Shown here: positions 22,501-43,755 of the stretch, one piece after another
How positions within the stretch are numbered: the stretch's first letter is position 1
How the letters are laid out: each line of letters opens with the position of its first letter
DNA from: a virus
IMG/VR virus record: IMGVR_UViG_3300025676_000013
DNA length: 64,000 nucleotides
Direction: 5' to 3' (one strand)
The notes under the pieces: generated by a model
The model's input: the letters and a program-made list of their open reading frames with translations, nothing else
Database searches by the model: none
Told to the model about the DNA's origin: nothing
Made by a program: the position numbers and the translations under genes

Positions 22501-25500
22501 CACCGTTTACTTCCCAAGAACCTGTCTCTGTCCAAACAACTTCTTTGAATGAAACATTGTCGAGTAGAATATTTGAACGCTGATTAATATCAACACTCAT
22601 ATAAACTTTAGCAAGTCCCTCGTGGTTATTTGTTACAAGGAATTGCTCTGAATTAGCACCTTTTATCATTGTAACTGGGTCAATATATTGGATAGTACCA
22701 AGTTCAATATTCATTGCTTGAATCTTAGGTAGTGCTCCAAGTCCAGTTGCTGTTACTAGATTTCCAAGTTGTAACAAGTCTGCTTGAGTTCCCGCTACTG
22801 GGAACGCATTTGCAGGTTCTGGTTGTACTTGGAAGTAATCATTTCCTGTTCCGTTGTCTATTTGAATTTTATCTTTAATGTGTAATGGAGTGTACATATT
22901 TTCTTGACCGTGATGATAATAAACTACGATATCATCTCCAGCATTAACTACTGGAATGTCAATAATATTGAATGTACCAACCATAGATGCGTGCCAACCA
23001 CACTGATAATACAGTGTGTCTGGTGCAACTGAAGGTACAGTAAATTCTACAATCTCATACTTAGGAACTCCTGCGGCATCTAGTCCGAATTTAGAACCTG
23101 GGTCAGTTTGAACCCCTGCTCCTTCTTCTCCTCTAGAACCCGTGACACCCAATAGATACTCACCGAAGTAAGCGCCTGGGGTAAAGTGACTTCCGTCATC
23201 AGTAGTTATATAGAATGGATGACCAGGTGCGTTGACTCTAAATCTATAAGTAGCACCTCTGTATAAGTTAAGAGTTCTGTTTGTTCCCTCAATCATTCCT
23301 TCTTTATCAAATTTGTATAGTCCGCCATCATCTTCTACTGCGTAGTAGAGATTAGTTTCTCCTGGCGGTACGAATGGCCCAAATCCAGATACTCCATCAG
23401 CACCTGTTAGACCGAAATCTTCTGGGATTTTCCAAGTAAATTCTTTCGAGAAGTTACCAATCCATTGTGACACTCTCCATTGTGCTAGTCCAACATCTTC
23501 ATTTGGATTTAATGCGGTACATACTGAGTAGTCATCGACTCCATTGTAATACCAACCAGTTACATCTAGTTCTTCACACCATCCACTCAATCCCATACAA
23601 ACTGGGAATGGTTGGTCTGAAACCCAAGTTCCTGGGTTATCCTCAAGAGATACAAAGTCGTTTAGAGCCCCAGTTTCAATGGTTAATCCGTGACTTGCGT
23701 TTTTATTAACACAATGATAGCCCTCATTTGGTTCGCCTAAGCCTCGTGTCATACCCGCTTGAACTAGGTTATCCCAGCCTCCACCAGGTATTGCTTTAAT
23801 ACCAGCGGCGTGCATATACATATCTTGCATTACACCAGTGAATGGGTCAGGAGCAGTAACGTGTCCTGAAGAACTCCAAGCATTATTTACAAATGTATAT
23901 TTACCACCACGGAATAAGTCGAATCCTCCTGCTGTTCCTTCGTTACCACCGAATGCTTCGTGTTCTGCAATGTCTCTTTGATAAGGATAGTAAGAGATGT
24001 TTGACATATCGTGCCAAGACCAGAACCAAGGAGAATCTTGTGCTCCTTCAACTGTAGTCTGGCCAGGGTCAGCGGCTGTAATAGTAGATTGTGTATCGAC
24101 AATAATTTCAAATCCGTCTGTGGGTCCGTAACCATCGCCAAGTGCAACAACTGTATGGTTCATCATTGCGCCAGGTAATTCAGTAGGCGTATATGGTTGT
24201 GGTCCAGATGGTAACTGAACAACATCACCAACTGATAATGCGTGATTGACTGATTTAACAGTTCTTGGTCGAGACCATAGAACTTCTACACCAGAGATGA
24301 ACGGGTCACCAACGTGGTTAGTTAAATCTCGTTCAACTTCGTATCTAAAGGATGCCATATCAGCAACAACTTCATAACTCTCAATAACATTGAAGAAAGT
24401 TGGAGTAGTTCCTGGCGCATTCTCTAGAGGATAAATTACTGTTTCAGTTAATGCAAAGTGGTCCCAATCGATAACATAGTCAACAAAGTAATTTGTATTA
24501 CCGTGATGAATTCCGTTATATACGTTAGTATAGTGTATCTTGTCGCCTGCTTTAAGTTGGTGTCCGTCTGATTCAATACCACGTTCTTTCTTAACATATC
24601 CTGCGATATCTGTGAAAGGCGTTGCGATTGTAGAAGGATTCAAATCATCGCCACCTAAAGCGAAATCATATTTTCCAACTGTGAATTGACTTGACCCAGG
24701 ATAGTATACTCTATCAAAATCGTGAATATGTTGGTCAATCGAAATAATTAAATATGTGTCATTTGCAGGGTCGATACATCCAAATTCTACTGTATGGAAA
24801 TGCTGTGGGTCAGAAGTTCCGTAATTGGAAGTTCCAATCTTAGTTGCTCCGCCCGTATGACTCCAAGTTCCATCAGTGTCTTGTGTGACTCCAGTTAATG
24901 GACTTGCTTTTAGTGTCGCTTCGTCTGTTATGTCAAGGAGCAATTGATGATAATGACCAAAGTTAGTCAATTCAATATTAGTTCCGCCTTCGATAACATA
25001 GTATTCAGACATACCGTGAGTATGTGAGCCAGTCATTCCAACTATATACATTCCACCAGCACCATTGTTTAGTGCAGGGTCCCAGTTATATGTAACAGAG
25101 TGAGCGTGAGGAGAGTTATCTCCAGAGCCAGTTCCGTCTGTCGTTGACATTGAAATTACGTTTGTGCCTGTTTGAATAGTAGCGTATTCGGCAGTTGTGA
25201 GTTCACCAGTGTGTATGTGTCCGATAACATTAACGTCATCAAAGAATACATCGACTCGTGCATCACCTTTTTGTACTGCGGTGATAATATAATCTTCCCA
25301 TTTACGCTCTCCAACTCCAACTACTGCTCCGCCACCCGTTGTGCTTCCGCCTGAACCATAACCAGTACCGCCTTGTTCTAGAGTAAGTGAAGTAATACTA
25401 CCATCAACTGAGCCTGTTGCTAAAGCATTGACTGTTGGTGAACCACCAACAAATGTAACAGCAGGTGGGCCAGTATATTCAGAACCCGCATTCGTTATTG

Positions 25501-27214
25501 TTACTGTATCAACAAATCCAGTAGCATCAATCGTACAAGTCGCTTCGGCTTGAATCGCAGTTCCACCATCAGCAACTAATACTCCGAATGGAGCAGAAAT
25601 AGATATAGTAGGAACAGATTGATAACCAGTTCCAGGTTCGTCTATAACAATACCCGTGACTGAAGCATCAAATCCTATAGTGCCAGTTGCACCAGCACCA
25701 CCTCCGCCAGAGATATACATTGTCGGGATGTTTGTGTATTGAGAACCACCACTATTTAATGTCAATGCTGTTACTACACCACCAACAACTGTCGCATCTG
25801 CCGAAGCATTTACTGTATTAGAATCATTACCACCTTGGAAGGTGATAACAACTGGAACAGTAGCATTCGGGTCAGTTTCAACGTCACCAGACTGAAATGA
25901 TACTAAGTCAGTAAGTGAAAGGTCGTGATAAAGTGATTCTACTACGTTTTGTGAGCCTGCTCCACCAATTGAGGTACAGAGTTGAGGCATTATCTGGCTA
26001 ATATTATAAGAATTAGATAGTGCAGGTAAGGCTACATTAGCGCCATAGTTAATAGGAATCTTGATTGTATCGCCGGGGTTTAGTCCGTGATTCAATGAAT
26101 AAACAAATCTGTGGTTAGTCGTACTGGACAATCTTCCTTCTTCGAGCGGGTGAAAAGTACAGTGAAAATATAAATCGTGATATCCATCTACTACCCAAGC
26201 CCACTGTTCACCAGGTGAAAGGTCAGGAGAAGCAAAGGATATATTATCATCAGAAACAGCATTGTGAACCAATATGTTTGTATCTGGATTATTAAATATG
26301 ATTGTGTCGCCTTCTCTCGCTTCGAGATGGTAAGGGACAAGAATATGTGTTTGTGTGTTCGGGTCGTTAATTGCGCCTTCGAACCAGTGACCGCCTGTAC
26401 TTGTACAAGCAGTTTCCATTGCGACAATTGAAGTCAGATATTCTGGTGTGATTACTGTCCAAGTCTCGCCAACACCTTCACAAGTTGCTTGGTCAGAGAT
26501 TGAAGGATTATTAGAACAACTGCTACAAGTAGGACGAACTAGAAGTTCGTCTTCTATTACAGAAGCAACAAATGTTCTTGGGGCTGGTCCACCACCAACT
26601 TCTGAGAAAGTCGCTGTATCAGGAGCAAGCATATCGACCATATTTTTAGCACCTGAAATAAGGTCCCAGTTAACATCATTAACTGTAAGGTCGTATGAAA
26701 ATTTGTATTGAGTATTTGGTTTAAGATTTGCTTCAAACCAAGCAAGAGCAACCTGTTGACCATCGGTGTAAGCATCAACAATCTGAGTTCCCTCAGTAAA
26801 GAACCTGTCGAATTGGTATGCAATACCATTCGCCCAAGGACTTGCTACGTTAATTGGTTCATCAAAACCACTATTCTTGAGCAATTCAACTTCAAACGCA
26901 TCTGCGGCAAAAGAACTATTTTGAACAAGGTTAGAGGATTCATATGTTATATCGAGACCACCATTCTCAATCATTTCTGTTGGTGATACGAATTGTTGTG
27001 AACGGCCTGCGACATTAATTAGAAAATCTTTATATTCTGGCAAATGTTCTAGGTTTTCCATTACCTCTAAAGACTTCAGCATAAGAGCCAAATCCTTAAC
27101 AAGAAGGTCAGGAGCATCCAATTTAATGTTCAAAGAGTCCAAGAAGGAACTCTTCTGTTGCTCTATAGTGTTTAATTCTAATAGACTGAATTTGTGACCT
27201 GTATAATGTGCCAT
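19502..27214 (-). CDS. Giant multidomain fibre/appendage protein (2570 aa): CBM-like jelly rolls, cupredoxin-like domains, HxH modules, Cys-module array, C-terminal IPT/TIG-like domains
   Basis: Domain motifs read from the translation; location in the tail/baseplate module. Confidence 0.7.
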   Translation of the reverse strand: MAHYTGHKFSLLELNTIEQQKSSFLDSLNIKLDAPDLLVKDLALMLKSLEVMENLEHLPEYKDFLINVAGRSQQFVSPTEMIENGGLDITYESSNLVQNSSFAADAFEVELLKNSGFDEPINVASPWANGIAYQFDRFFTEGTQIVDAYTDGQQVALAWFEANLKPNTQYKFSYDLTVNDVNWDLISGAKNMVDMLAPDTATFSEVGGGPAPRTFVASVIEDELLVRPTCSSCSNNPSISDQATCEGVGETWTVITPEYLTSIVAMETACTSTGGHWFEGAINDPNTQTHILVPYHLEAREGDTIIFNNPDTNILVHNAVSDDNISFASPDLSPGEQWAWVVDGYHDLYFHCTFHPLEEGRLSSTTNHRFVYSLNHGLNPGDTIKIPINYGANVALPALSNSYNISQIMPQLCTSIGGAGSQNVVESLYHDLSLTDLVSFQSGDVETDPNATVPVVITFQGGNDSNTVNASADATVVGGVVTALTLNSGGSQYTNIPTMYISGGGGAGATGTIGFDASVTGIVIDEPGTGYQSVPTISISAPFGVLVADGGTAIQAEATCTIDATGFVDTVTITNAGSEYTGPPAVTFVGGSPTVNALATGSVDGSITSLTLEQGGTGYGSGGSTTGGGAVVGVGERKWEDYIITAVQKGDARVDVFFDDVNVIGHIHTGELTTAEYATIQTGTNVISMSTTDGTGSGDNSPHAHSVTYNWDPALNNGAGGMYIVGMTGSHTHGMSEYYVIEGGTNIELTNFGHYHQLLLDITDEATLKASPLTGVTQDTDGTWSHTGGATKIGTSNYGTSDPQHFHTVEFGCIDPANDTYLIISIDQHIHDFDRVYYPGSSQFTVGKYDFALGGDDLNPSTIATPFTDIAGYVKKERGIESDGHQLKAGDKIHYTNVYNGIHHGNTNYFVDYVIDWDHFALTETVIYPLENAPGTTPTFFNVIESYEVVADMASFRYEVERDLTNHVGDPFISGVEVLWSRPRTVKSVNHALSVGDVVQLPSGPQPYTPTELPGAMMNHTVVALGDGYGPTDGFEIIVDTQSTITAADPGQTTVEGAQDSPWFWSWHDMSNISYYPYQRDIAEHEAFGGNEGTAGGFDLFRGGKYTFVNNAWSSSGHVTAPDPFTGVMQDMYMHAAGIKAIPGGGWDNLVQAGMTRGLGEPNEGYHCVNKNASHGLTIETGALNDFVSLEDNPGTWVSDQPFPVCMGLSGWCEELDVTGWYYNGVDDYSVCTALNPNEDVGLAQWRVSQWIGNFSKEFTWKIPEDFGLTGADGVSGFGPFVPPGETNLYYAVEDDGGLYKFDKEGMIEGTNRTLNLYRGATYRFRVNAPGHPFYITTDDGSHFTPGAYFGEYLLGVTGSRGEEGAGVQTDPGSKFGLDAAGVPKYEIVEFTVPSVAPDTLYYQCGWHASMVGTFNIIDIPVVNAGDDIVVYYHHGQENMYTPLHIKDKIQIDNGTGNDYFQVQPEPANAFPVAGTQADLLQLGNLVTATGLGALPKIQAMNIELGTIQYIDPVTMIKGANSEQFLVTNNHEGLAKVYMSVDINQRSNILLDNVSFKEVVWTETGSWEVNGGTAHTTDGTAAHIEQLVTGTVQDGITYEIQYDIIESFKDVFGAENGTLTASLMGDTTIVGTANTLVGHYSETVVAPNNTAILRLSNTGIGKIDNISIRERVTGQNAWYMGEGWQSINGKAYLDGTILSDTEINQTVVFTPGKLYEVKYTLADMDPSDNGMTGRLRVALGSDTTHKIANWNLDIVDPLQINWTASGVDVSITNAVMNFNSSVNGTMTYTLENNLVKNSSYETTLDCVLETHNILTFQVGPGPNGSHSHQFQITQVDADWLMADATRTRTFPQTDAYHADTYTHEFTISYDTGSYILVSQTIPEGHETLALIGTSANNPSIEILIGGVLQKTITTSGIHHLDLIGEASDQFVLRMNGTGLINSVSLHEEDIPVLDADTTGLVPSGQRTHHVRAGSADSKIHFISTVDNNRPENYSPYYTNTGFQGSIDDVSVREIEEKWTFSPQQGAEAYVNQNTQQIYTSGVGTSARGIAHISFEVTDKLNYKVSFDIDRPTDSIVKIGPTPDSDAYGSMVIAANDTDGSKDFIFTAPVTGNAFLTLSTTGNGFTYWDNISVKSVPNLSSDEYLLLARSMNVFGVPIGGEERWANNHLDMKNADYVGQPIAGMRTLESFGESVVEDYYDVNKRSNEILNPPIMISTMSIEFGNRAVSAITPSCSNPLYYNSVDCETINGAWTGLATEFCSDGIYTTEAGCVEPFGTWTAGSCSASANNTEADCIMEGTCSNPVYNNNETNCLAQGTCSIGSYYDQVSCENNAGTWTSANNTWTSANNTWTPGTCTDVSYTTEATCIAPRGTWTPEVPAHCSDANFTTEAECIAPRGTWDTTVVSAMAGDTVEVVGDGIDPLWTITLGGVEQVSQAVLLPTKVNFVINPLTPLGDQEFIITNTDGDTATAPTLFNVRDTLRIISVTEIDPSNWFILGAGFVSGGNGTVVWVELTSTPGTGPVANSPSYQFTDVNNLAMVDDQGGLASGTYDVIVENADGTQFREVSSLVIP
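20166..20212. repeat. 21-bp tandem repeat, about 2.2 copies (TSANNTW)
   Basis: gtccaagtattattcgctgaa x2 plus gtcca. Confidence 0.95.
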
Positions 27215-33189: not shown

Positions 33190-34200
33190 TTAGAATTCTA
33201 CTACGAGTTTCAAATCCTCAATCTGGTCAGATGCACGAGTAATAGCACGCCTGTTCTCAAGATAAATCAACTGTCCACTATCGCTTTCTAAACTTACGTC
33301 TGCATCAGCATATACGGATGCTTGGGCTTTCGTTCCGCCACCAGCAAGTTCTGGATTACGCAAGAGTCCGATTTGTCGAAAGTCATCGTTCTCTGGGAAT
33401 CCGTCTGAAGTCTCAAGTCTAACGTGAATCAATCCGTGGTGAGTTTTCGCTGTAAATATAGAATCTACATCACCGAAATCGGCCTGCTCAGACCCTGCAA
33501 GAACTCCTGTACCTGAAATAACTGGCATCCAGTCATTGGTAGTAGAGTTAATAATGTCGTTCAATTCTAGTTTATATAAGAATGTCCACGTATAGTTGTC
33601 AGATGTAGTAATCGCTTGAGCAACTAGTCCAGCGGCATCTCCAGTAAAGCCAGTTGGCTCTTCAGAAGCACCAGTAGGTAACCAAAGTCCACCTAAAGTA
33701 CCTTCACAAGTTGTTCGTGAAACAGCAGTTCCGCCATCAAAGACTCCACCAATATAGCATTTTCCGCCAGATGGTTCGCCTGTACACATATAAACTCGAT
33801 ATTCAGAATTCATCACAATACTGTGACTTCCGATTTTTGAAACAAAAGAACGGCCAGGTTCATCAATTCCTGTGATGCCGTTTGCGGCATCTCCGTCAAA
33901 TGCGATAGTATCACCTGTTTCCCAGTTAATACGTGGAAGCACGGGTGAGATATCATCATTCTGAATTCGCTTGGTACCAACAATGTCAGTCCAATATTGT
34001 GATTCATCCTCATCAAGAGGGTCAGGTAGAGTAAAGTTACCTGAACTTTCGTCATTTCCTTGAGCATCATTAGGCCAAGCGTCATTTCGCCCAAACCCTA
34101 GATACAGGAAGTTGTCGTCAACAGAACCAGTAGTTTTGAACTGGTCGATGAAAACCATCAAGTTCTGTGTTCTGAATTTACTGGTTACAATTGCACCCAT
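33190..34200 (-). CDS. gp8: Baseplate wedge subunit
   Basis: LYLGFGRNDAWP, YRVYMC, TSDNYTWTFLY, FRQIGLLRNP, GQLIYLENR..ITRASDQIEDLKLVVEF. Confidence 0.9.
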   Translation of the reverse strand: MGAIVTSKFRTQNLMVFIDQFKTTGSVDDNFLYLGFGRNDAWPNDAQGNDESSGNFTLPDPLDEDESQYWTDIVGTKRIQNDDISPVLPRINWETGDTIAFDGDAANGITGIDEPGRSFVSKIGSHSIVMNSEYRVYMCTGEPSGGKCYIGGVFDGGTAVSRTTCEGTLGGLWLPTGASEEPTGFTGDAAGLVAQAITTSDNYTWTFLYKLELNDIINSTTNDWMPVISGTGVLAGSEQADFGDVDSIFTAKTHHGLIHVRLETSDGFPENDDFRQIGLLRNPELAGGGTKAQASVYADADVSLESDSGQLIYLENRRAITRASDQIEDLKLVVEF

Positions 34201-34290: not shown

Positions 34291-37200
34291 TTATGCCGGT
34301 ACTGGCCATACGTTGCTATCGTCTACAGTAGTAGAGTGGACGTGGTCGCCTGCTCCAGAGCCCTGTGTGTTTTGTGACCACTGACCACCAATTGGAACAC
34401 TTCCCAAATATGATATTGTATCGTGGTTGTCATAGTCACTTGTTTGTGATATAATGTTATAAGTAGAACCATTCCACTCTAATACTAATTCGTGAGTGTA
34501 TACGGCCGCGTGTGTACTATCTCTCTGTGGTGTAGTTACATAAGTTCCACCAATCAAGGATGTATAATCTGCAACACTTATCCAGTAATCGTGGTCGTGG
34601 AATCCACCAGTTAGAGAGAATTTATGCACATATGTAGATGTTCCTGGTATAATATCCCATTGTGAAATACCAGCAACTACAAATGTTCCCTTTGCTCCCA
34701 TATTGGGATTAAATTTTATCGTATATCCGTGATAGTGGGAACTGGCTCCGTTTGGAGAATCAAAGAATATAATACCATAGTTGGCATTCTGAGCATTAAT
34801 CAAATCATTTGCTTGTGCCAAAGTAATTGGTTCACACGTTCTTCCGACATTAACTCCCGCTGAATCCAAAGAGCATCCATCATAAAGCAGGTGGTCGTGA
34901 CTTCCGATACCAGCAATAAACGATGGTTGCATCTGAACAATGGGCGGGTTGTTTGCCTGAAGGACATTATTTACATAAGTTTTTCTTTCCGTTAAGTCTT
35001 CCACTTCGGAAGTTGTTTGACTTGTCGTAACTTCAGACGTAATAACTGGGTCACCAACCGATGTTTCAGTACCATAATCTGAATAGTATATAATATCAGT
35101 CGTGGTCGTTGTAATCTGGACCGTTGACGTTGTTGTCGTTGTGATTAAATCACTATATGTTACGATAATAGTTGTATCACCAGTCGCAGGCGTATCTGGA
35201 TACGTTGTTGTGACTGGTAGTAATTCGGTTGAAGCCTGCGTAACAACAACACTCGGTGCCGCAGAAAGAACTTCATCAGTTGATGTAGTCTTCGTTATAT
35301 ATATGCTACCACCAGTTTGCTGTGGTATTGCAACTAGATTTGGATTCCAGTCAATTGTCAAGTTATGCCAGTGAAGTCCTTCAGCCGCATTCTCAACTAC
35401 AGATACATAATATTTAGTAGGGTCTTGAAGTGAATCTTCAATGCCACCTTTAATCCAAGTCACTGACCAATCAGCATAGAATATATTATAATTAGTATCC
35501 CATTTAATTCTGTACTCGTGAAAGTGAGCACCCTCAATTGAATCGTAAATAGTAACACTATCTACAACACCATCAATCAGTTGCATACCTTGGTCAATCG
35601 TCATTCCGTGAGCGTAAGAAATCTGTCCAGTCAAAGCCCCTTCTGCAAATGGTCCCACAACTGTATCATTATGAAAGTGAGGGTGAGAACCACCTGGATA
35701 AGGATATCCAGGAGAAGCAAATGTCGGTAGAATTTCCATCATCTCATTATAACCTGGTCGTGAAAACAGATTAGAGATGTTCGTTGGATGTGCGTGTGAC
35801 CTTGGGTCTGCGGAATAGAATTGATGTCCGTCAGATGATTCCCATTTCTCAGTATCTAACGCAACGAAACTTAATGTATTTGGGTCGTATGTAATTGTGA
35901 TTCCGTGATAATGGTCTCCGCCTGAGATAGATGTATATGTTTTTACTTCAGTCACTTCACCATTAATCAAATCAGTTGCTTGATTATCATCTAATGGTAA
36001 TGCTTGTCTGCCAGTGTGTGTTCCGAGAGTGTCTAATGTTGTTCCGTTAAATGCGTGTAGATGGTCTGGTTCAGAGCCTTCTAATTTATGCCAATCGTGT
36101 GCATTTGATAATGTAACATCAGGAGCAGTATACAATGGTGTACCATTCCAACCAAGATGGGTCGTTATACCATTAACTAAAAGGGTATGCTCGTGAGTTC
36201 GTAGATGTGTATCTACTGCTTCCCATTCTCCAGTACCGTTTTCATCCCACATCTCAGCCATTTCGTCTGCAACAAATTGTTGCGTAGAAAGATTCCACAT
36301 AATTTTATATACGTGATAATGTTGATGCTGGCCAGAATCTTCAATAGAAGAATAAACATAAAATGCGTTTACTACTCCATTAGCAAGTTCTTCTGCTTGT
36401 ATTCTCGTAATCGGTACAGCCGTTCTACCATCATTAGCACCAAATGTATCTAGTGTCTCACTATTGAAATAGTGGATGTGAGCGTTCTCGCCATATTCGT
36501 TTGCTCCAAGTATCTCTACTACGGGAGCAGTCTCAATATAAAATGTTCCGTCATCATCGTCATCATCGACAGCAAGATAAGGCGTATCAGAGCCTGTGTC
36601 GTATGGTTCCCAAACTAGAGTTAGAGGATTCAAATGCCATCCAGCAGATGAACCAAGAAGAATATTTTCATCTACTATTCCAGTCCACGAAGTAATTACA
36701 GGATGCAAGTGAGAGACAGGAGTATTATAAGTCCATATAGGGAAGAAAGCATCCCAGTCAGTCATTTCAATATCAGATATCTCAGTTGCAGAGAATAATT
36801 CTGTGTTAATGTCGTATACTACTTTATATCCGTGAACGTGAGCCGTTTCAGAAGCAGGGATTTGTGAAGATGCACCCGTTTCTGTAGAGGAATCATATGT
36901 ATCAGTTAGTTTGTATATATCACAATTCTGTGGGCCAGTTCCTTGATAACTATCAATACCAATTCTTGTAGCCATATAAAGTTCGCCATTAGTGTCTTCA
37001 CCTAATGTCAATATAGATTGGTCGTGAGTTGTTAAGTTCAATACAGATGTTGCAGGGTCCCAGAAAGATAAATTCTTTCTTGTATATCCTACATCGCCAT
37101 TGTATTCGATAAATGTGAATACATCGTGGTTCTCCATATTCGTTTGTGCTATCAGATTCCAAGTATTGAAAGCCGCATTCCATATAATGGAGAATGTGTG

Positions 37201-40200
37201 AGTATAACTTTCAGCGTGAACCGTATCACTCTGAACAACAACAATTGGTGTTCCAGGATTCGCTTGAGCCATCGCAACTTGACTCGGAGTTAATATAGCC
37301 TCGTGACTATGATTTGCTCCATTGATTGCATTAGGAGTTATTGTGAAGTGTGCAGAAAGTCCATCAGGATTTTCTTCTAGTGAAAAGAGATGACCAGTAG
37401 TACCAGCCCAACTCGTACTCCAATCTCCGAATATGTATTTGCCTTGAAGTCCAGTTAAGTCACTTCCCCTATAGATGAATCCACCTAAGATAGAAATACC
37501 AGTTCCGTGACTGTACTCGTGAATAGGTGATTTTAAATCAAGAAGAAATGCTTGAGTATTTGCATAGCCTTGGTCTAATGCCATTTGGTCAATAGTTGCT
37601 TGGTCTTCTTCAAAGTAATGATATGCTTCCATTACTCTCCAACCATAGTTGCCGCCCTTTTCGATAATGTTTACTTCTTCAAATTTATTTTGTCCAACAT
37701 CAGCCGCCCATAGTTTACCATCTGGAGCAAAAGAGAATCTCCAAGGATTTCTTAATCCGTATGCCCATATCTCTTCTCTAAACATTGCACCCGCAGTACC
37801 GTGTGGTTTTGCATTTACACCAGTGAAGGGGTTATCGGAAGGTATGGAATAAGGTTTATTATTAACTGTGTCTGGTGCGACATCAATTCTAAGAATTGTG
37901 CCCAATATGTTAGTAGGGTTCTGTGCATTACCATATACTCCGTGTCCGCCGTGACCGCTAGAACTCGAAGTATCTCCCGCATTTCCGCCGTCACCGAATC
38001 CGATATAGAGATAACCATCTGGGCCAAATACTAATTGACCACCGTTATGATTCATATCAGGTTGTGGCTGTGTGATTAAAATTCGTTCAGTAGTAATATC
38101 AACTGTCTCTGCCGCAACGTCAGCCGTGAACTCAGCAATGATTGAAGTTGAAAGAGGATATCCGTATGAGCCAGTAGATGGACCTTGCTCTGTCATATAA
38201 TAGACATACAAGAGTCCGTTTGTTGCGTAATCTGGATGGAATGCAAGTCCTAGAGCGCCACGTTCATCATATGCACCGAATGGCCCGACTCCGATAGTCA
38301 GATTAAGAGAAGTGTAGTCGAAAAATAATGATTTGACACCAGACGTAGTATCCATCAAGTGAATGATTCCAGATTGGTCTACAATACAGATTTTATCTGG
38401 GTCCATCGGATACGCTACAATAGTCGCAATGTCTGTGCCTGTACCCATCTTAACATCCCCTAGTAAATCTCCAGTATCACCAGAGCCAGGAACTTGTTGA
38501 ATATAGTTAGATGAATATAATTCTACCCAGTCTACATTAGGTACTAGCGTAGCAGGGAAAGTCTGTGCGTGTTGGAATGTAAATGATGCTTCACCAATTG
38601 CAGTAGCAACCGTGGCATCATCAAGTTCATTGAATACATTCTGTCCGAGATTCATTGTGTTACCAGAATAATCAACACCGTCAATTAAACTAGGGTCAAC
38701 CACAAGTTCTGGTTTATAGTTATAACATATCCACGTAGTAACTGGCGTATATCTAAATCCGTGCGTACAAGGATTACCCATAAAGTCAGTATTCATTTCC
38801 CAGTCTGATTCGTATGTGACTAGGTACTCGTGATAATGTGCAGAGGTAATTCCATTTGAATCGGCTACCGTACCGCCTTGGAAGACGCCATTTTCATCTG
38901 TCTCAGGGACCCCGTTGGTAGTTATTCCGATACTATCGTAAAGAGTTACGTCTGTGATATCTCCGTCAATTAATTTTCTTGCATCGGCTCTTGATAGAGG
39001 GTCAGATACACGACCACGTTGTCTGTCTACAATTTGACCATCTACAAATCTATGAACGTGACCCGTTGCTTCAGGCAAGAATGCAGTCGTATGAACATCT
39101 GCAAGGAATTCTGGAATTTCAAAAGCATCAGAATTCATTAATGCTCTTGCTTGAGAATAACTTAGTCCGTGAGCCGTTGCTTCTTTTCCGTGAACCATTA
39201 AATTAGGTATTGCACTTCCATCAAAACTATGAACGTGAAACGCTGCCGCTCCAACACTCATCAATGGAAGTTCAAGTCCTTTAGTAAGACTTGTAGATAC
39301 TAGTGGTGCGAAACCATTCTTTCTTCCGTGGGAATGGATTACATTAGGGTTATCAAACGCCTGTATCTGAACCGCATCAATAACGTCATTTGTATTCCCG
39401 TATACTTTTTTAACTAGTGTGTCTTCTCGACCACTCTCGAATGCGCCGTAACTCTTTTCAGGAGCGTATTCGGCTTCTTGCATAAACGATTCAACCCATT
39501 CAACAACTCTAGAAAGATGTTTGAATACGGACAATTCATAAACGTCACAAGAAATCATTCTACCGTCTGTGGTATTCTCTAGATTATCCTCAATGCCTAA
39601 TTCAGTAACAGAAGGTGGGAACTCTTCAATAGGTAGAACTCGGAGAAGATTAGTAAATTCAAATACAACCTTCTCAGGCCAAGCATTAATCTGGTTCTTG
39701 ATTTCATCACGGAGAATATTAATTTGATAGAGTTTCTCTGTAAGTTTGGTACCAATAGTCTTGATTTCATTTTTATCAGTTACTATATCAACCCCTACGT
39801 GTTCACCAGGAGCACCCCAATTATCAGGAGTTACTAAGGCAGCCCTTGAATCGAGATTACCCATCATTTCAATGATATATTCGTCAAAGCCTTTCTCAAT
39901 GAAGACTCCAAATCCAGTATGAGCCCTTCCGACTGAACCGTGTTGTTCGCTCTCTTGGTCCCAGATATCAACCGCGACATCAAGATAAGAGAATATCGCA
40001 ATAATCATCTTGACGTAATCGGTAGGTAATTCGATTACCAAATCAACTGTAGACCTAAACGAGAACTCAGCAAATAATTTCAGTCCAACAGGGTGAACTA
40101 GTTTTTTAAGAACTTCTCTATACGACTGAATAGGTACATCACTTCGGATAACATAAGAGAAATCTTGGTAGTAGTCATTATCTTGGAGTTTTCTGTCAGA

Positions 40201-41562
40201 AGACAGGAAGCCGCCAGAGTCAAGCCAGTAACCATTTGTTTTCCAAACGGCCGTCTTGACATTAGGTTGAGTCTCGATATTAACAAGAGCATCACACTCT
40301 TCTCGTGTCAAAGGAGGACTACTTACATTTAATAGTATATTGTGTTCTACGTCTTGAAGGGTCTTAGTAATATCGACTACTGGGTACCACGAAAGAAACG
40401 CACTCTCTCCGAAATAGGGGCTCGCCTTGTCTAACCCATCCGGGTGCAACGCCGCCACACAATCAACCTCAGTAGTAAACGTATGAAGAACTGGCCAATC
40501 CGTAGAGATACTACAGAATGATTGGCTCGGGTTTTCCCAATAGTTGTTCGCCGCCACGTTAAATAATTTCTCACCTAACTCAAACTCACCAGTTACTTCT
40601 AATAGGTTAAGTTTTGTCCAGTCAGTATCAGTACCATCAATGGTTGCTGTAGCACCAGAGGTTAATCCTTTTATTAGTGAACCACCCTCTCTGTGTACCC
40701 CTGCCGCGTGTAGGTAATGAACTTCATTTGGATGTCCACTAATATTAATCCATTTATCTGTCCATTTGTGCCCATTGACAATACATTCACCCTCTGTCCG
40801 AATACCGTCAGAGATGATTAGTGCTTTATAGGGTATAGTGCCAGATGTACCAACGTCTTCCCAGATTTCTTCGTCTTTAATGAATACGCCATTTACTTCG
40901 GTTAATAGGAGTCGCTCGTAGTCTGTAGTAGAGACTGATTCGTCCATATCCACGAAAGCCGTTGCGCCGCTAATTTGGCCACGGATTTTTTTGTTGTAGA
41001 TAGACCGTACCGTCTCGGCCACGTGTGAGTTATTCGTGTTGCCGAAATAGGGCGATGCAGAATCTAGTGTGGCTTGGTCAGTTAGTACCGTAATCCATTG
41101 TGGCTCATACCATACACTGCCAGACGCCTTCATCATCCATTGCTTTGGATACATCGTATCAACGTCTGTATTAAAGTCTCGTCTGAATAGAAACTCTAGG
41201 GCAGAAGTAGTACCTTTCTGTCTATAGACAGGTTGGATATTCTTAGCAAGGAAGGACTTGTCAGTAGTCTCTACTGTTGGGTCTATTGAGGTGTGTGGTG
41301 TACCGTGGAGATACTTAGCCTCGAATTCTGGTATGAAATTATCTAGTGCGTGGTCAACATCAATGTTCTGAATCAAATCAGTTATTTGATTGTACTCGCC
41401 TAGTTCCCCATTAACACCAGTCTCTCGTTCCAAGTATTCAAAATACTTGCGAAGGAAAGTGATGAACATAGGATGGTCTTCCCGTACATAGTCGGGCACC
41501 ATTCTCTCAACAAAGACCGATAGGAACTTAGCAGGAGATTTAGTAAATTTATCGTTAGCCAT
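34291..41562 (-). CDS. gp7: Baseplate wedge initiator (gp7-like) with a very long C-terminal extension carrying HxH modules and a glucose/sorbosone dehydrogenase-type beta-propeller
   Basis: VPDYVREDHPMFITFLRKYFEYLE, YRQKGT, GYWLDSGGFLSSDRKLQDNDYYQDFSYVIRS..LKKLVHPVGLK; between gp6 and gp8. Confidence 0.78.
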   Translation of the reverse strand: MANDKFTKSPAKFLSVFVERMVPDYVREDHPMFITFLRKYFEYLERETGVNGELGEYNQITDLIQNIDVDHALDNFIPEFEAKYLHGTPHTSIDPTVETTDKSFLAKNIQPVYRQKGTTSALEFLFRRDFNTDVDTMYPKQWMMKASGSVWYEPQWITVLTDQATLDSASPYFGNTNNSHVAETVRSIYNKKIRGQISGATAFVDMDESVSTTDYERLLLTEVNGVFIKDEEIWEDVGTSGTIPYKALIISDGIRTEGECIVNGHKWTDKWINISGHPNEVHYLHAAGVHREGGSLIKGLTSGATATIDGTDTDWTKLNLLEVTGEFELGEKLFNVAANNYWENPSQSFCSISTDWPVLHTFTTEVDCVAALHPDGLDKASPYFGESAFLSWYPVVDITKTLQDVEHNILLNVSSPPLTREECDALVNIETQPNVKTAVWKTNGYWLDSGGFLSSDRKLQDNDYYQDFSYVIRSDVPIQSYREVLKKLVHPVGLKLFAEFSFRSTVDLVIELPTDYVKMIIAIFSYLDVAVDIWDQESEQHGSVGRAHTGFGVFIEKGFDEYIIEMMGNLDSRAALVTPDNWGAPGEHVGVDIVTDKNEIKTIGTKLTEKLYQINILRDEIKNQINAWPEKVVFEFTNLLRVLPIEEFPPSVTELGIEDNLENTTDGRMISCDVYELSVFKHLSRVVEWVESFMQEAEYAPEKSYGAFESGREDTLVKKVYGNTNDVIDAVQIQAFDNPNVIHSHGRKNGFAPLVSTSLTKGLELPLMSVGAAAFHVHSFDGSAIPNLMVHGKEATAHGLSYSQARALMNSDAFEIPEFLADVHTTAFLPEATGHVHRFVDGQIVDRQRGRVSDPLSRADARKLIDGDITDVTLYDSIGITTNGVPETDENGVFQGGTVADSNGITSAHYHEYLVTYESDWEMNTDFMGNPCTHGFRYTPVTTWICYNYKPELVVDPSLIDGVDYSGNTMNLGQNVFNELDDATVATAIGEASFTFQHAQTFPATLVPNVDWVELYSSNYIQQVPGSGDTGDLLGDVKMGTGTDIATIVAYPMDPDKICIVDQSGIIHLMDTTSGVKSLFFDYTSLNLTIGVGPFGAYDERGALGLAFHPDYATNGLLYVYYMTEQGPSTGSYGYPLSTSIIAEFTADVAAETVDITTERILITQPQPDMNHNGGQLVFGPDGYLYIGFGDGGNAGDTSSSSGHGGHGVYGNAQNPTNILGTILRIDVAPDTVNNKPYSIPSDNPFTGVNAKPHGTAGAMFREEIWAYGLRNPWRFSFAPDGKLWAADVGQNKFEEVNIIEKGGNYGWRVMEAYHYFEEDQATIDQMALDQGYANTQAFLLDLKSPIHEYSHGTGISILGGFIYRGSDLTGLQGKYIFGDWSTSWAGTTGHLFSLEENPDGLSAHFTITPNAINGANHSHEAILTPSQVAMAQANPGTPIVVVQSDTVHAESYTHTFSIIWNAAFNTWNLIAQTNMENHDVFTFIEYNGDVGYTRKNLSFWDPATSVLNLTTHDQSILTLGEDTNGELYMATRIGIDSYQGTGPQNCDIYKLTDTYDSSTETGASSQIPASETAHVHGYKVVYDINTELFSATEISDIEMTDWDAFFPIWTYNTPVSHLHPVITSWTGIVDENILLGSSAGWHLNPLTLVWEPYDTGSDTPYLAVDDDDDDGTFYIETAPVVEILGANEYGENAHIHYFNSETLDTFGANDGRTAVPITRIQAEELANGVVNAFYVYSSIEDSGQHQHYHVYKIMWNLSTQQFVADEMAEMWDENGTGEWEAVDTHLRTHEHTLLVNGITTHLGWNGTPLYTAPDVTLSNAHDWHKLEGSEPDHLHAFNGTTLDTLGTHTGRQALPLDDNQATDLINGEVTEVKTYTSISGGDHYHGITITYDPNTLSFVALDTEKWESSDGHQFYSADPRSHAHPTNISNLFSRPGYNEMMEILPTFASPGYPYPGGSHPHFHNDTVVGPFAEGALTGQISYAHGMTIDQGMQLIDGVVDSVTIYDSIEGAHFHEYRIKWDTNYNIFYADWSVTWIKGGIEDSLQDPTKYYVSVVENAAEGLHWHNLTIDWNPNLVAIPQQTGGSIYITKTTSTDEVLSAAPSVVVTQASTELLPVTTTYPDTPATGDTTIIVTYSDLITTTTTSTVQITTTTTDIIYYSDYGTETSVGDPVITSEVTTSQTTSEVEDLTERKTYVNNVLQANNPPIVQMQPSFIAGIGSHDHLLYDGCSLDSAGVNVGRTCEPITLAQANDLINAQNANYGIIFFDSPNGASSHYHGYTIKFNPNMGAKGTFVVAGISQWDIIPGTSTYVHKFSLTGGFHDHDYWISVADYTSLIGGTYVTTPQRDSTHAAVYTHELVLEWNGSTYNIISQTSDYDNHDTISYLGSVPIGGQWSQNTQGSGAGDHVHSTTVDDSNVWPVPA

Positions 41563-41580: not shown

Positions 41581-43341
41581 TCAATTGATACTCTGCATCG
41601 TTACACTACTAGTATTTAGTACGAGTAGATTACTTCGGATTGCCGTAATATCATTTGATTGCGGAGTAGCGTACAAACTTATTACTGAATTAGTGTCTAA
41701 CACGGGTCTAAATCCAATTAACTCTATGATTCCATTGGTATAGTCGATGGTACCTTGCTCTGTATTGAGGAATTGCTCATTAACAATGTCGTATAATAGA
41801 ATATTGCCTTGGCCATCGTCTAATAGAGCATACTGGGACCCCGTATCTGTATTACCGAATACACTTGACACGGCAGTACCAGGTGTGATAGCATTATCAT
41901 ACTTAAAGATATAGTTACCAACGGTATTGGATGCTTGAATAAAAAACTTCTTATAAAACTTGACAGACGTTAAATTATTTGATATACTTTCATCAGCAAT
42001 GTCAATAGTATTACCAAGGCGGGAATACCTCATTGTCACTTTAAATGCAGATATCTCTTCCTCAAAGAAGGCCTGAATGTCTGCTATTACTTTACTCTGT
42101 ATCTCACCAGCACTCAAACTGGTTAAGACAGGGTTATACTTGACTGTGCTAATAACATCAATGTAGGTGTACTCTGGTGCTGTTATAATAGGGTTTATGG
42201 CTAACATATTGTATTTACTCAATATATCAGTCGTTAATTTTTGTTTGGTCAATGGTGACAACTCTAGGCCGTGCTTAGGCTTGATACAAATGAATACTGC
42301 ACCATACTGAGGAGGGTCATTATCTTCACCACCCCATACGGCTATTGAATCAATATTAGGATACTTCTCTATTAATATATTCTTATAGTCCTCTGCGGTC
42401 ACTGCCCTATCTTGTCTCTCATAGGCTCTTGGTGCTGTAAGTTTAATGTTTTCAGTGGTCTCTGCACTCGCACCTAGAGAAGAGATGTCCACAGTGTCCA
42501 CCGTCACGTGGGAGTCGGTGTAGACGTTGGCTATAGTCGATTCAAGTGCGAACACTTGCTCATTAATAGTAGAGGTATAGTTACCTGGAGCACCCACCGT
42601 AGATAGGTAAGTTACTTTAACTGATTGACCATCAAGAGGTATTTTGCCAAAGATGCCATTGCCGAAGTATATCTCACTAACTCCATCAAGGCCTTCCTGA
42701 ACAAAGAATGAATTACTCGTAGGGGTCAATTCGCTTAATACTTTGTTGACTTCCCAAGGCTTGTCATTAACAAGCATAGTAATAGTAGAGCGGTCACAGG
42801 TAGCATCATTAATAAAGAAGGACTGGGCTTCCGCAGTAGCGTCATATGTCCATTCAAGGCCTTTTAATGTCCCTTGATGCAACTTAATTTCGCCAGCGAA
42901 CTCTCCACCCTCGTCTGCAAACACATTAACAGTAGATAAATTGGTAAATGGAAGAGGTACACCAGTAATATTAGATACAAATTGAGTACCTTTCTCTACA
43001 ATAATGTAACTTGGGTCATATCCAGTCGTATCAAACTCTAGTTTAACAATAGATTCAGCGGCTGTAACGCTCTTAGGTATATATCCAATGCTCTTAGCGT
43101 GACTCACAACACTATTTCGGAGCGTTGCGGTATCTAAAAATGCCTCATTGACTGCCATATTCGTATGGAAACCCATATAGTGTGTAGTGTATGCCATTAC
43201 ATCCAGCATTACACTCATACCAGAGCCGTCAAAGTCATAGTCCAAGAACTCAGTCTGACCCTTCATAAAGGTCTTGATGTTCTTCTTAATGCCATCGAAC
43301 TCTAGGTCCGATAAGTTTAATGCTTTCTTATTCTGTGCCAT
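41581..43341 (-). CDS. gp6: Baseplate wedge subunit
   Basis: LEFDGIKKNI, DYDFDGSGMSVMLDVMAYTTHY, FLDTATLRNSVVSHAK, RAVTAEDY, WGGEDNDPPQYG. Confidence 0.96.
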   Translation of the reverse strand: MAQNKKALNLSDLEFDGIKKNIKTFMKGQTEFLDYDFDGSGMSVMLDVMAYTTHYMGFHTNMAVNEAFLDTATLRNSVVSHAKSIGYIPKSVTAAESIVKLEFDTTGYDPSYIIVEKGTQFVSNITGVPLPFTNLSTVNVFADEGGEFAGEIKLHQGTLKGLEWTYDATAEAQSFFINDATCDRSTITMLVNDKPWEVNKVLSELTPTSNSFFVQEGLDGVSEIYFGNGIFGKIPLDGQSVKVTYLSTVGAPGNYTSTINEQVFALESTIANVYTDSHVTVDTVDISSLGASAETTENIKLTAPRAYERQDRAVTAEDYKNILIEKYPNIDSIAVWGGEDNDPPQYGAVFICIKPKHGLELSPLTKQKLTTDILSKYNMLAINPIITAPEYTYIDVISTVKYNPVLTSLSAGEIQSKVIADIQAFFEEEISAFKVTMRYSRLGNTIDIADESISNNLTSVKFYKKFFIQASNTVGNYIFKYDNAITPGTAVSSVFGNTDTGSQYALLDDGQGNILLYDIVNEQFLNTEQGTIDYTNGIIELIGFRPVLDTNSVISLYATPQSNDITAIRSNLLVLNTSSVTMQSIN

Positions 43342-43347
43342 CTCTTA

Positions 43348-43755
43348 CTACCTCAATCTATTTAAGAAGAAATCTAATTGTACTGGGGACCCTTCGTTGA
43401 CTGGCGTATATGCTATAGTAACATCATAGCCATTCCTATCTTCATCAGCATTAACCTCAACTCCAATCAACTCTACACGTGGTTCAAATGTGTTAATGGC
43501 CTGCTTGATTGCGGCAGTCAGTATAACTCGTGTCTCTGTAATCATTGGTTCAAAGAGCGAATGGTAGATAGTAGAGCCGAACTCACTCTGGAATACCCTC
43601 TCACCTCTCTGAGTCTTAATAATATGTATGATGGACCCATTAATCGCATCAACGTCCGAACGACCAACGATATCATTGGTCAATGGATGTACCAACATAT
43701 CAAGGTCTAAGTCTCTGAACTTGCGTACTCTCGTTGTTCTAATGGGTTCTGGCAT
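43348..43755 (-). CDS. gp25: Baseplate wedge subunit / sheath initiator
   Basis: FRDLDL...GERVFQSEFGS..LFEP...FEPRV. Confidence 0.93.
   Translation of the reverse strand: MPEPIRTTRVRKFRDLDLDMLVHPLTNDIVGRSDVDAINGSIIHIIKTQRGERVFQSEFGSTIYHSLFEPMITETRVILTAAIKQAINTFEPRVELIGVEVNADEDRNGYDVTIAYTPVNEGSPVQLDFFLNRLR

What the first reader, a model, noticed from the sequence alone, without database searches (positions are those of the whole stretch)
36900..38450. Glucose/sorbosone (PQQ-dependent) dehydrogenase beta-propeller fused inside the baseplate wedge protein gp7
Seen: [108 protein letters not shown], which is the full family motif series, in frame in the 2423-aa ORF. The His of NHNG and the Arg of LRNP sit where soluble aldose dehydrogenases have catalytic/PQQ-binding residues. 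Caveat (established): the same subfamily includes non-catalytic propellers such as HHIP/HIPL1, so a lectin-like receptor-binding role is equally possible. An oxidoreductase fold built into a core baseplate subunit is very unusual.
Basis: partly seen in the sequence, partly recalled or inferred. Interest (0 to 1): 0.85.

Follow-up and report, generated by a model that had tools for sequence, protein, structure and literature searches.

The report
Sugar-dehydrogenase propeller inside phage baseplate protein
A widespread, uncultured marine T4-like phage has built a complete sugar-dehydrogenase-type six-bladed propeller, with every conserved pocket residue intact, into its giant baseplate protein gp7, most likely to grip (and possibly oxidise) sugars on the host surface.

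Summary
Residues about 1040-1560 of the 2423-aa gp7-like ORF (window 36883-38445, minus strand) are a complete PF07995 propeller: Pfam E 7e-33; model Z 37.9 to both HHIP and a PQQ aldose dehydrogenase. It is not a chimera. More than 30 protein clusters, 42 IMG/VR contigs and contigs from four independent marine runs carry the same fusion. No GenBank phage has it.

The domain belongs to a huge cellular subfamily (YDERG...NHNGG...GDGG...RNPW...DVGQ..EE...GNYGW...GDW). Its nearest members are often fused to plastocyanin-type or cytochrome c domains, so the subfamily looks redox-active. The phage copies keep 72 of 75 subfamily-conserved positions. These include the equivalents of sGDH His144, Asp163 and Arg228/Asn229. 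Like the whole subfamily and HHIP, they lack Lys377, Arg406 and Arg408.

A 92-aa His-rich module is inserted in blade 6. Neighbouring fibre proteins carry cupredoxin-like domains with conserved Cys/His/Met ligands. A second phage clade places the same propeller beside or within tail-fibre genes.

Best reading: an adsorption module that engages host-surface sugars (0.45). Nearly as likely: a working quinoprotein paired with copper domains (0.37). This is a new kind of phage tail domain. The scan had noted this stretch before on the same DNA.

The parts
34291..41562 (-). gp7-like giant baseplate wedge gene, 2423 aa (P0001)
   Evidence: Single ORF. PF23786 and phrog_17744 match. Gene order gp25-gp6-gp7-gp8 is repeated on an independent 152.9-kb contig.
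40003..41562 (-). Conserved gp7 wedge core, residues 1 to about 520
   Evidence: phrog_17744 matches residues 12-236 and PF23786 matches residues 453-500. This is the most conserved part of alignment A1.
36883..38445 (-). Six-bladed sGDH/HHIP-type beta-propeller (PF07995), residues 1040-1560
37033..37320 (-). His-rich module of about 92 aa inserted in blade 6 of the propeller, residues about 1415-1510
   Evidence: It is absent from all cellular homologues and from the second phage clade. It is homologous to the C-terminal module at residues 2315-2423, i-E 3e-9. Some relatives carry a further Cys-rich insert of about 87 aa at the same loop.
38758..39270 (-). His-rich (HxH) region upstream of the propeller, residues 765-935
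   Evidence: Weak but repeated matches to modules A and B. HxH motifs at residues 776, 835 and 909.
34294..36510 (-). Array of His-rich modules A-E downstream of the propeller (residues 1685-1800, 1825-1935, 1950-2075, 2212-2330, 2315-2423). Modules A-D were aligned and each carries three HxH motifs.
   Evidence: Modules A-D are mutually homologous, i-E 1e-7 to 1e-16. In alignment A3 the second and third HxH are invariant; the first is present in every row that covers it.
41581..43341 (-). gp6-like baseplate wedge gene
   Evidence: phrog_219 at E 4e-153. About 35% identity to gp6 of pelagiphages, Methylophilales phages and cyanophages.
33190..34200 (-). gp8-like baseplate wedge gene
   Evidence: PF09215 at E 3.5e-30.
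26090..26389 (-). Cupredoxin-like domain 1 in the neighbouring 2570-aa structural protein (P0288 residues 276-375; VHNAV...YFHCTFHPLEEGR)
   Evidence: 23.1 bits to a profile of PF00127 domains fused to cellular GSDH relatives; the best of 200 shuffles scored 6.7. The ligand motif is invariant in 26 homologues.
22919..23344 (-). Cupredoxin-like domain 2 in the 2570-aa protein (P0288 residues 1291-1432; GHPF...YYQCGWHASM)
   Evidence: His/Cys/His/Met set with C-x2-H-x2-M spacing, conserved in 27 close homologues and several distant ones, and lost in one distant homologue. Profile and Pfam scores are not significant. Weak ESM Atlas lead only.
17140..17331 (-). Cupredoxin-like domain (N-terminal two thirds) in the 1194-aa structural protein, residues 701-764
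   Evidence: 40.9 bits to the custom cupredoxin profile. Pfam Cupredoxin_1 reaches only E 0.059. No C-terminal Cys-His-Met loop is seen.

Best explanation
The propeller is a captured copy of a cellular, secreted sugar-dehydrogenase-type module. It is carried on the long extension that follows the conserved gp7 wedge core. Its substrate/cofactor pocket is intact. Its most likely job is to engage sugars of the host envelope during adsorption, as a baseplate-borne receptor-binding module. The His-rich modules around it, and the one inside it, would act as metal-stabilised spacers. Shown: the fold, family membership, the integrity and conservation of the pocket residues, recurrence of the fusion, and its association with tail and baseplate genes in two phage clades. 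Inferred: that the ligand is a host glycan, that the domain is exposed at the baseplate periphery, and that binding rather than turnover is what matters.
For: The fold and family are established. The fusion recurs in more than 30 clusters at 54-95% identity on contigs up to 153 kb, always between gp6 and gp8 where the neighbourhood was read. Contigs from four independent runs bridge both domain borders with no joints or indels. A second phage clade puts the same propeller at the C-terminus of gp7, or in 484-674-aa proteins next to Mtd_N, Gly_rich_2 and CBM_5_12 tail-fibre genes. That is the neighbourhood expected for host-recognition parts. Cellular relatives are multi-domain surface proteins carrying CBM, lectin, PKD, Ig and T9SS domains. 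The best structural match, HHIP, is a non-catalytic binder that was solved with heparin and with a glycosaminoglycan mimic. The three PQQ-carboxylate ligands of sGDH/YliI are absent. From established knowledge, phage tail proteins commonly recruit carbohydrate-binding domains, and a virion has no obvious electron sink.
Against: A pure lectin would not need the general-base His, the Asp, the Arg-Asn pair or the Ca-loop. All are invariant in 44 viral sequences and in 230 cellular representatives. In HHIP the sequence gave no alignment over the Arg-Asn/Ca-loop segment. The nearest cellular relatives are fused to plastocyanin-type or cytochrome c domains. Cupredoxin-like domains with conserved Cu ligands sit in neighbouring tail proteins. 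These points favour a redox role. No host, glycan or binding data exist.
Confidence: 0.45

Rival explanations
1. The propeller is a working quinoprotein-type sugar dehydrogenase on the virion. It would bind PQQ or a related quinone plus Ca, oxidise a host-surface or free sugar, and pass electrons to blue-copper-like domains in neighbouring fibre proteins. This would give redox chemistry at the cell surface, such as oxidative glycan attack or a redox trigger.
For: The phage clade keeps 72 of the 75 positions that are at least 85% conserved in 230 cellular representatives. These include the equivalents of His144, Asp163, Arg228/Asn229 and the Ca-loop Glu. The same holds in the second phage clade at 38% identity. 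Seven of the eight nearest cellular relatives scanned carry PF00127 above its cut-off, and others carry cytochrome c, so the subfamily looks redox-active. A profile of those fused cupredoxins hits the window's 1194-aa protein at 40.9 bits and its 2570-aa protein at 23.1 bits; the best of 200 shuffles scored 6.7. Cys/His/Met or Cys/His/Glu ligand sets are invariant in fibre homologues and lost in one distant homologue. P0057/L118 has such domains in the same polypeptide as the propeller, and the L120-L123 group has one at the tip of the adjacent Mtd_N fibre. The literature shows that AA12 CcSDH is PQQ-dependent even though it lacks several bacterial PQQ ligands (PMC4133262, PMC6881789).
Against: Lys377, Arg406 and Arg408 are absent, and no member of this subfamily has been characterised. 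Pfam itself does not call the phage cupredoxin-like segments. Segment 2 is not significant even with the custom profile. A cofactor would have to be scavenged. There is no known terminal acceptor and no precedent for a redox enzyme on a virion. Co-inheritance from a fused cellular ancestor could explain the co-occurrence.
Confidence: 0.37
2. The propeller is an inert scaffold, or a binder of something other than sugar. It could bind a protein, as HHIP binds Hedgehog, or a metal ion. It would be kept only for its rigid shape within the gp7 extension.
For: HHIP, the best match, binds a protein through its propeller loops. The domain tolerates nested insertions in blade 6. It is embedded in an array of repeat modules.
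Against: Strict conservation of the pocket residues across two phage clades is not expected for a spacer. The cellular relatives have carbohydrate-linked domain architectures.
Confidence: 0.12
3. The fusion is an assembly chimera or a mis-called ORF.
For: None was found. The window comes from a metagenome assembly.
Against: The 90%-identity cluster has 39 members from several assemblers and sources, on contigs up to 150 kb. About 32 further clusters carry the fusion. Contigs from four runs in four studies bridge both borders without joints or indels. GC content is even across the gene.
Confidence: 0.01

Closest known systems
Soluble PQQ glucose/aldose dehydrogenases (A. calcoaceticus sGDH 1C9U/1CQ1; E. 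coli YliI/Asd 2G8S; P. aerophilum Asd 3A9G)
   Same: Same Pfam family and the same six-bladed fold (Z 32-38). The general-base His, the Asp, the Arg-Asn pair and the Ca-loop/Glu253 segment all align.
   Different: Only 23-25% identity. Lys377, Arg406 and Arg408, which hold the PQQ carboxylates, are replaced by Ser/Trp, Gln and Ile. Those enzymes are free periplasmic proteins, not parts of a virion. They have no blade-6 insertion.
Hedgehog-interacting protein (HHIP) propeller (2WFX, 3HO5, 7PGM)
   Same: Best sequence match (E 4e-25) and joint-best fold match (Z 37.9, 30% identity). Same DERG/GDGG-type motifs. It lacks the same three PQQ ligands. It is a binder of proteins and glycosaminoglycans.
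   Different: HHIP gave no sequence alignment over the blade-4 RNP...DVGQ..EE...GGNYGW segment, which the phage domain shares with the enzymes. HHIP is an animal protein with EGF domains.
Uncharacterised cellular 'PQQ-dependent sugar dehydrogenase' proteins fused to plastocyanin/azurin (PF00127) or cytochrome c domains (e.g. P0124, P0149, P0187, P0244)
   Same: These are the nearest relatives, at 42-54% identity. They share the complete motif signature. The window also holds cupredoxin-like domains, but in other proteins.
   Different: They are cellular secreted or surface proteins found in many phyla. Their function is untested. They have no His-rich insertion.
Fungal AA12 PQQ pyranose dehydrogenase (CcPDH 6JWF/6JT5; TrAA12 6H7T)
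   Same: Six-bladed fold (Z 26-27). It is PQQ-dependent although it lacks several bacterial PQQ ligands, and it is fused to an electron-transfer domain and a CBM (PMC4133262, PMC6881789).
   Different: Only a distant relative, with no sequence-level hit. Its partner is cytochrome b rather than a cupredoxin.
Enzyme or propeller domains in phage tail proteins (e.g. K1F endosialidase six-bladed propeller, phi11 RBP propeller; own knowledge, not tested here)
   Same: A beta-propeller captured into the host-recognition apparatus.
   Different: Those are glycosidase or lectin folds in tailspikes or RBPs. None belongs to the GSDH family, and none sits inside the core wedge protein gp7. No GenBank phage record holds a GSDH domain.

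Membership tests
PF07995 GSDH / sGDH-like propeller | Pfam HMM score above the gathering threshold | tested here: met
   114.7 bits against a cut-off of 25, E 7.3e-33.
PF07995 GSDH / sGDH-like propeller | Closed six-bladed beta-propeller fold | tested here: met
   Model residues 2-519 align to HHIP, Asd and sGDH at Z 32-38. Foldseek E 2e-22.
PQQ-dependent sGDH/Asd enzymes | General-base His (sGDH His144) and Asp163 | tested here: met
   H1172 lies in NHNGG and D1191 in GDGG, aligned with YliI. Both are invariant in the phage clade.
PQQ-dependent sGDH/Asd enzymes | Arg228/Asn229 flanking the PQQ quinone oxygens | tested here: met
   The ungapped HMMER alignment of sGDH 222-271 places them on R1271/N1272. 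Both are 100% conserved in the viral sequences.
PQQ-dependent sGDH/Asd enzymes | Catalytic Ca loop (Gly247/Pro248 carbonyls) and structural Ca ligand Glu253 | tested here: inconclusive
   G1290 and E1296 align, but Pro248 is Gln1291. The ligands are main-chain atoms, so sequence alone cannot decide.
PQQ-dependent sGDH/Asd enzymes | PQQ-carboxylate ligands Lys377, Arg406 and Arg408 | tested here: not met
   YliI ALK aligns to DWS, and YliI RIR aligns to SIL, near residues 1380-1382 and 1516-1518. The same holds in all subfamily members examined.
PQQ-dependent sGDH/Asd enzymes | PQQ binding and sugar:acceptor activity | not testable with these tools
HHIP-type non-catalytic propeller | Loss of the blade-4 Arg-Asn/Ca-loop enzyme signature | tested here: not met
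   The phage segment matches sGDH, Asd and four further dehydrogenase-type propeller chains here. HHIP aligns only to blade 5.
T4 gp7 baseplate wedge protein | Family HMMs for the wedge core | tested here: met
   PF23786 at 31.9 bits against a cut-off of 27. phrog_17744 at E 2.5e-45.
T4 gp7 baseplate wedge protein | Position between gp6 and gp8 in a T4-type baseplate module | tested here: met
   The window has gp25-gp6-gp7-gp8. L001 has gp48, gp53, gp5, PAAR, gp25, gp6, gp7 and gp8.
T4 gp7 baseplate wedge protein | Sequence similarity to solved T4 gp7 | tested here: inconclusive
   The N-terminal 600 aa give no PDB sequence hit at E up to 1. No fold comparison was run.
Cupredoxin (neighbouring proteins, bears on mechanism) | Pfam PF00127/PF13473 above the cut-off | tested here: not met
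   The only hit is Cupredoxin_1 at 13.8 bits against a cut-off of 27, on the 1194-aa protein. The excised segments give no hit.
Cupredoxin (neighbouring proteins, bears on mechanism) | Match to a profile of PF00127 domains fused to cellular GSDH relatives | tested here: met
   W1194 scores 40.9 bits and P0288 residues 293-358 score 23.1 bits. The best of 200 shuffles scored 6.7. Segment 2 scores only 4.9 bits.
Cupredoxin (neighbouring proteins, bears on mechanism) | Type-1 copper ligand set (His, Cys, His, Met/other) | tested here: inconclusive
   The motifs are present and conserved, but neither the fold nor metal binding has been shown.

The most novel reading that the evidence does not exclude
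The virion carries a working electron-transfer chain. A quinoprotein-type sugar dehydrogenase in gp7 would take electrons from host-surface (or free) sugars and hand them to blue-copper domains in the adjacent fibre proteins. HxH-bound metals might also take part. The result would be oxidative chemistry at the cell surface, either oxidative cleavage of envelope glycans or a redox trigger for baseplate firing. This would be the first redox-active phage adsorption apparatus.
Probability: 0.33. Interest if true: 0.95.

Novelty: new variant of a known kind. Interest (0 to 1): 0.72.

Why it matters
Phage host-recognition parts are known to borrow hydrolases, lyases and lectins. A dehydrogenase-family propeller with an intact active-site signature has not been described in one. 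No paper in the library links this family to a baseplate, and none of 50,697 GenBank phage records holds it.

Here it sits inside a core wedge protein of a phage seen in at least eight marine studies. A second phage clade uses the same domain beside tail fibres. Copper-site-like domains travel with it in both clades. If it only binds sugar, it defines a new class of receptor-binding domain for abundant uncultured marine myoviruses. If it turns over, virions would carry redox cofactors and metals as working parts. That bears on infection mechanisms and on trace-metal and cofactor budgets in seawater.

It also points to a very large, uncharacterised cellular family of cupredoxin- and cytochrome-linked GSDH proteins that deserves biochemical study.

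Tried and rejected
- **GenBank phages.** Megablast and tblastn found no phage with the domain. The only hits were four 'Acinetobacter phage MD-2021a' records annotated yliI, at 26-29% identity. I judge these to be bacterial contigs.
- **Own genome.** No genome is held for this window.
- **Donor or host from genome contigs.** The nearest hits are 36-47% identical and spread over Bacteroidota, Planctomycetota, Chloroflexota, archaea and others. No donor or host can be named.
- **One capture or two.** FastTree gives two phage clades, each with support 1.0. Their relation is unresolved, with supports of 0.40-0.88.
- **His-rich modules.** Pfam finds nothing even at E 10. The AlphaFold model of one module has pLDDT 56, and Foldseek finds nothing at E up to 0.001. 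The fold stays unknown.
- **Cupredoxin-like segments.** Pfam and the PDB sequence search give nothing. The ESM Atlas gives only a 0.87 lead to a cluster in which 17% of members carry PF00127.
- **N-terminal 600 aa against PDB sequences.** No hit.
- **Papers.** The T. cruzi PQQ paper proved irrelevant. No paper links a PQQ-dependent sugar dehydrogenase to a cupredoxin.
- **Not done.** I did not search related phage contigs for pqq biosynthesis genes. I did not run complex prediction, because transient electron-transfer pairs suit it poorly. I did not superpose pocket geometry, because model coordinates are not exposed.


Full report
**What is there**

The window's minus strand carries a T4-type baseplate block. 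It reads gp25-like (43348-43755), gp6-like (41581-43341), a 2423-aa ORF (34291-41562), gp8-like (33190-34200) and a DUF4815 protein (27663-33101).

The 2423-aa protein has a gp7 wedge core at its N-terminus. phrog_17744 matches at E 2.5e-45, and PF23786 scores 31.9 bits against a cut-off of 27. At residues 1100-1379 it has a strong GSDH match: PF07995, E 7.3e-33.

The PDB sequence search ranks HHIP first (E 4e-25), then sGDH (3e-18) and the aldose dehydrogenases. An AlphaFold model of residues 1040-1560, built on 35 sequences, has pLDDT 76.8 and pTM 0.79. It is a closed six-bladed propeller. Z is 37.9 to HHIP (rmsd 3.2 over 334 aa), 37.9 to P. aerophilum PQQ-Asd (rmsd 2.7 over 323 aa), 32-33 to sGDH and 26-27 to fungal AA12.

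**The fusion is not an artefact**

A search restricted to long proteins found about 32 clusters at 90% identity that combine PF23786 and PF07995. They are 54-95% identical over the domain and lie on contigs up to 153 kb. An independent 152,906-bp contig shows gp48, gp53, gp5, PAAR, gp25, gp6, the gp7-GSDH protein, gp8 and DUF4815 in order.

The window's own protein cluster has 39 members from several sources. The stretch 36500-39000 is held near-identically in 15 runs from at least eight marine studies dated 2012-2025, and also in metatranscriptome libraries. Contigs from four runs in four studies bridge both domain borders with no joints or indels. GC content is even across the gene.

No record among 50,697 GenBank phage entries holds the domain. 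The gp6 gene is only about 35% identical to gp6 of pelagiphages, Methylophilales phages and cyanophages. This is therefore an uncultured marine T4-like lineage.

**Active-site residues**

An ungapped HMMER alignment of sGDH residues 222-271 places Arg228/Asn229 on R1271/N1272. It places Gly247 on G1290, Pro248 on Q1291 and Glu253 on E1296. MAFFT with E. coli YliI (L003:10743-11858) places the general-base His on H1172 and the following acidic residue on D1191. The roles of these sGDH residues are taken from PMC6881810 and PMC6881789.

The three residues that hold the PQQ carboxylates in sGDH and YliI are not matched. Lys377, Arg406 and Arg408 correspond to YliI 'ALK' and 'RIR'. These align to DWS and SIL in the phage protein. 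The same is true of every subfamily member examined and of HHIP.

This absence is not decisive. The AA12 enzyme CcSDH also lacks several bacterial PQQ ligands and is still PQQ-dependent (PMC4133262). It uses an Arg from blade 1 instead (PMC6881789). The Arg of the invariant YDERG motif (R1101) is a candidate for the same role here, but I could not test this.

**Which subfamily**

An exhaustive HMMER scan found 29,446 representative proteins at E up to 1e-3. The nearest cellular ones are 42-54% identical over blades 1-5.

I scanned eight of the closest relatives. Seven (P0124, P0149, P0187, P0193, P0204, P0244 and P0043) carry a plastocyanin/azurin domain above Pfam's cut-off. Other relatives carry cytochrome c. 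The cupredoxin-fused members share the exact phage motif set. The subfamily therefore looks like a redox enzyme family with a built-in electron acceptor, although no member has been characterised.

Across 230 cellular representatives, 75 positions are at least 85% conserved. The phage clade of 34 sequences keeps 72 of them, including all candidate pocket residues at about 100%. HHIP, the one known non-catalytic relative, does not align over the RNP...DVGQ..EE...GGNYGW segment, whereas sGDH and Asd do. The phage domain is thus HHIP-like overall but enzyme-like in blade 4.

**Architecture around the propeller**

The propeller is interrupted in blade 6 by about 92 residues (roughly 1415-1510). 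These are absent from all cellular homologues and from the second phage clade. The insert is homologous to the protein's C-terminal module at residues 2315-2423, i-E 3e-9. Some relatives carry a further Cys-rich segment of about 87 aa at the same loop.

Downstream lie four mutually homologous modules at residues 1685-1800, 1825-1935, 1950-2075 and 2212-2330. Each has three HxH motifs. Their fold could not be assigned. HxH motifs in phage fibres are discussed in the literature as iron sites, for example in PMC11705849 (title and abstract only).

**A second phage clade**

An IMG/VR scan with the alignment found 42 viral contigs. Thirty are of the gp7-internal type. Nine form a second clade.

In this second clade the propeller has no insert. 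It sits either at the C-terminus of a different giant gp7 (P0057, L118) or in 484-674-aa proteins. Those proteins lie next to genes carrying Mtd_N, Gly_rich_2, He_PIG and CBM_5_12 domains, which are tail-fibre-type genes. All members keep the motif set. The propeller is thus a recurrent part of the adsorption apparatus of phages.

**Copper-site-like domains nearby**

I followed an earlier unchecked note (e1-5875964). I built a profile from 25 cupredoxin domains fused to cellular GSDH relatives. It scores 40.9 bits on residues 701-764 of the window's 1194-aa protein. It scores 23.1 bits on residues 293-358 of the 2570-aa protein. The best of 200 shuffles scored 6.7. Pfam alone does not call these regions.

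In 26 homologues of the 2570-aa protein the segment VHNAV...YFHCTFHPLEEGR is invariant. A second segment, GHP.Y.T...YYQC.WH..M (C-x2-H-x2-M), keeps its His, Cys, His and Met in all close homologues and several distant ones. One distant homologue has lost them.

P0057/L118 has GHPF...YYYCHNHAAM in the same chain as the propeller. The Mtd_N fibre next to the stand-alone propeller in L120-L123 ends in GHGF...YIYQCTAHAPMHG. These scores are marginal (9-14 bits), and the fold is unproven for segment 2. Even so, the pairing of propeller and copper-like domains recurs in cells and in both phage clades.

**Weighing the readings**

All readings agree that this is a functional module on the adsorption machinery.

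- **Binding only (0.45).** This is the simpler reading. It has a precedent in HHIP, which was solved with heparin, and it needs neither a cofactor nor an electron sink.
- **Redox (0.37).** This reading explains why the catalytic signature and the copper ligands are kept. It rests on an uncharacterised subfamily and on marginal cupredoxin scores.
- **Inert scaffold or non-sugar binder (0.12).**
- **Artefact (0.01).**

**Novelty**

This is a new variant of a known kind, namely an enzyme-family domain captured into a phage tail protein. It would be categorically new if the redox reading holds. The scan had already noted this stretch on the same DNA (e1-5875961).

Noticed in passing
window 34294-36510 and 38758-39270 (-): gp7 holds an array of modules of about 110-125 aa. 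Modules A-D were aligned (A3) and each has three HxH motifs: the second and third HxH are invariant, and the first is present in every row that covers it. Pfam finds no family and no fold could be assigned. Six His per module could form an intramolecular octahedral metal site, like the Fe sites formed between chains in T4 fibres (speculation).
   Followed up: partly
window 22919-23344 and 26090-26389 (-), in the 2570-aa ORF 19502-27214: Two cupredoxin-like segments have copper-ligand motifs (VHN...FHCTFHPLEE and GHPF...YYQCGWHASM). The motifs are strictly conserved in 26-27 homologues. Pfam does not call them.
   Followed up: partly
window 17140-17331 (-), in the 1194-aa ORF 15847-19431: The N-terminal two thirds of a cupredoxin domain scores 40.9 bits to a custom profile. 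It apparently lacks the Cys-His-Met loop.
   Followed up: partly
L121:7141-9999 and L120 (IMG/VR contigs): In a second phage clade, the Mtd_N-type fibre gene directly downstream of a stand-alone GSDH propeller ends in a cupredoxin-like tip (GHGF...YIYQCTAHAPMHG).
   Followed up: partly
L005:5141-6955 (and the proteins P0012-P0020): Some relatives carry an extra Cys-rich segment of about 87 aa, with repeated NNTWT(S/P) and C...C...W micro-modules, inserted directly after the His-rich insert in blade 6. This loop appears to be an insertion hot spot.
   Followed up: partly
protein cluster of P0001: One near-identical partial copy is deposited as MBT6072461.1, from a 'Euryarchaeota archaeon' MAG. 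Given the T4-type baseplate context, this is probably a binning error rather than a host clue.
   Followed up: no
window 36500-39000: Marine metatranscriptome libraries hold this stretch (word share 0.47-0.54), with contigs across both domain borders. Carry-over of DNA cannot be excluded.
   Followed up: partly
P0033 and P0026 (relatives), upstream of the propeller: These relatives carry a Cys/Trp-rich insertion of about 80-150 aa (CGGIMTP..WGDW...) between two upstream HxH motifs. The window's protein lacks it.
   Followed up: no
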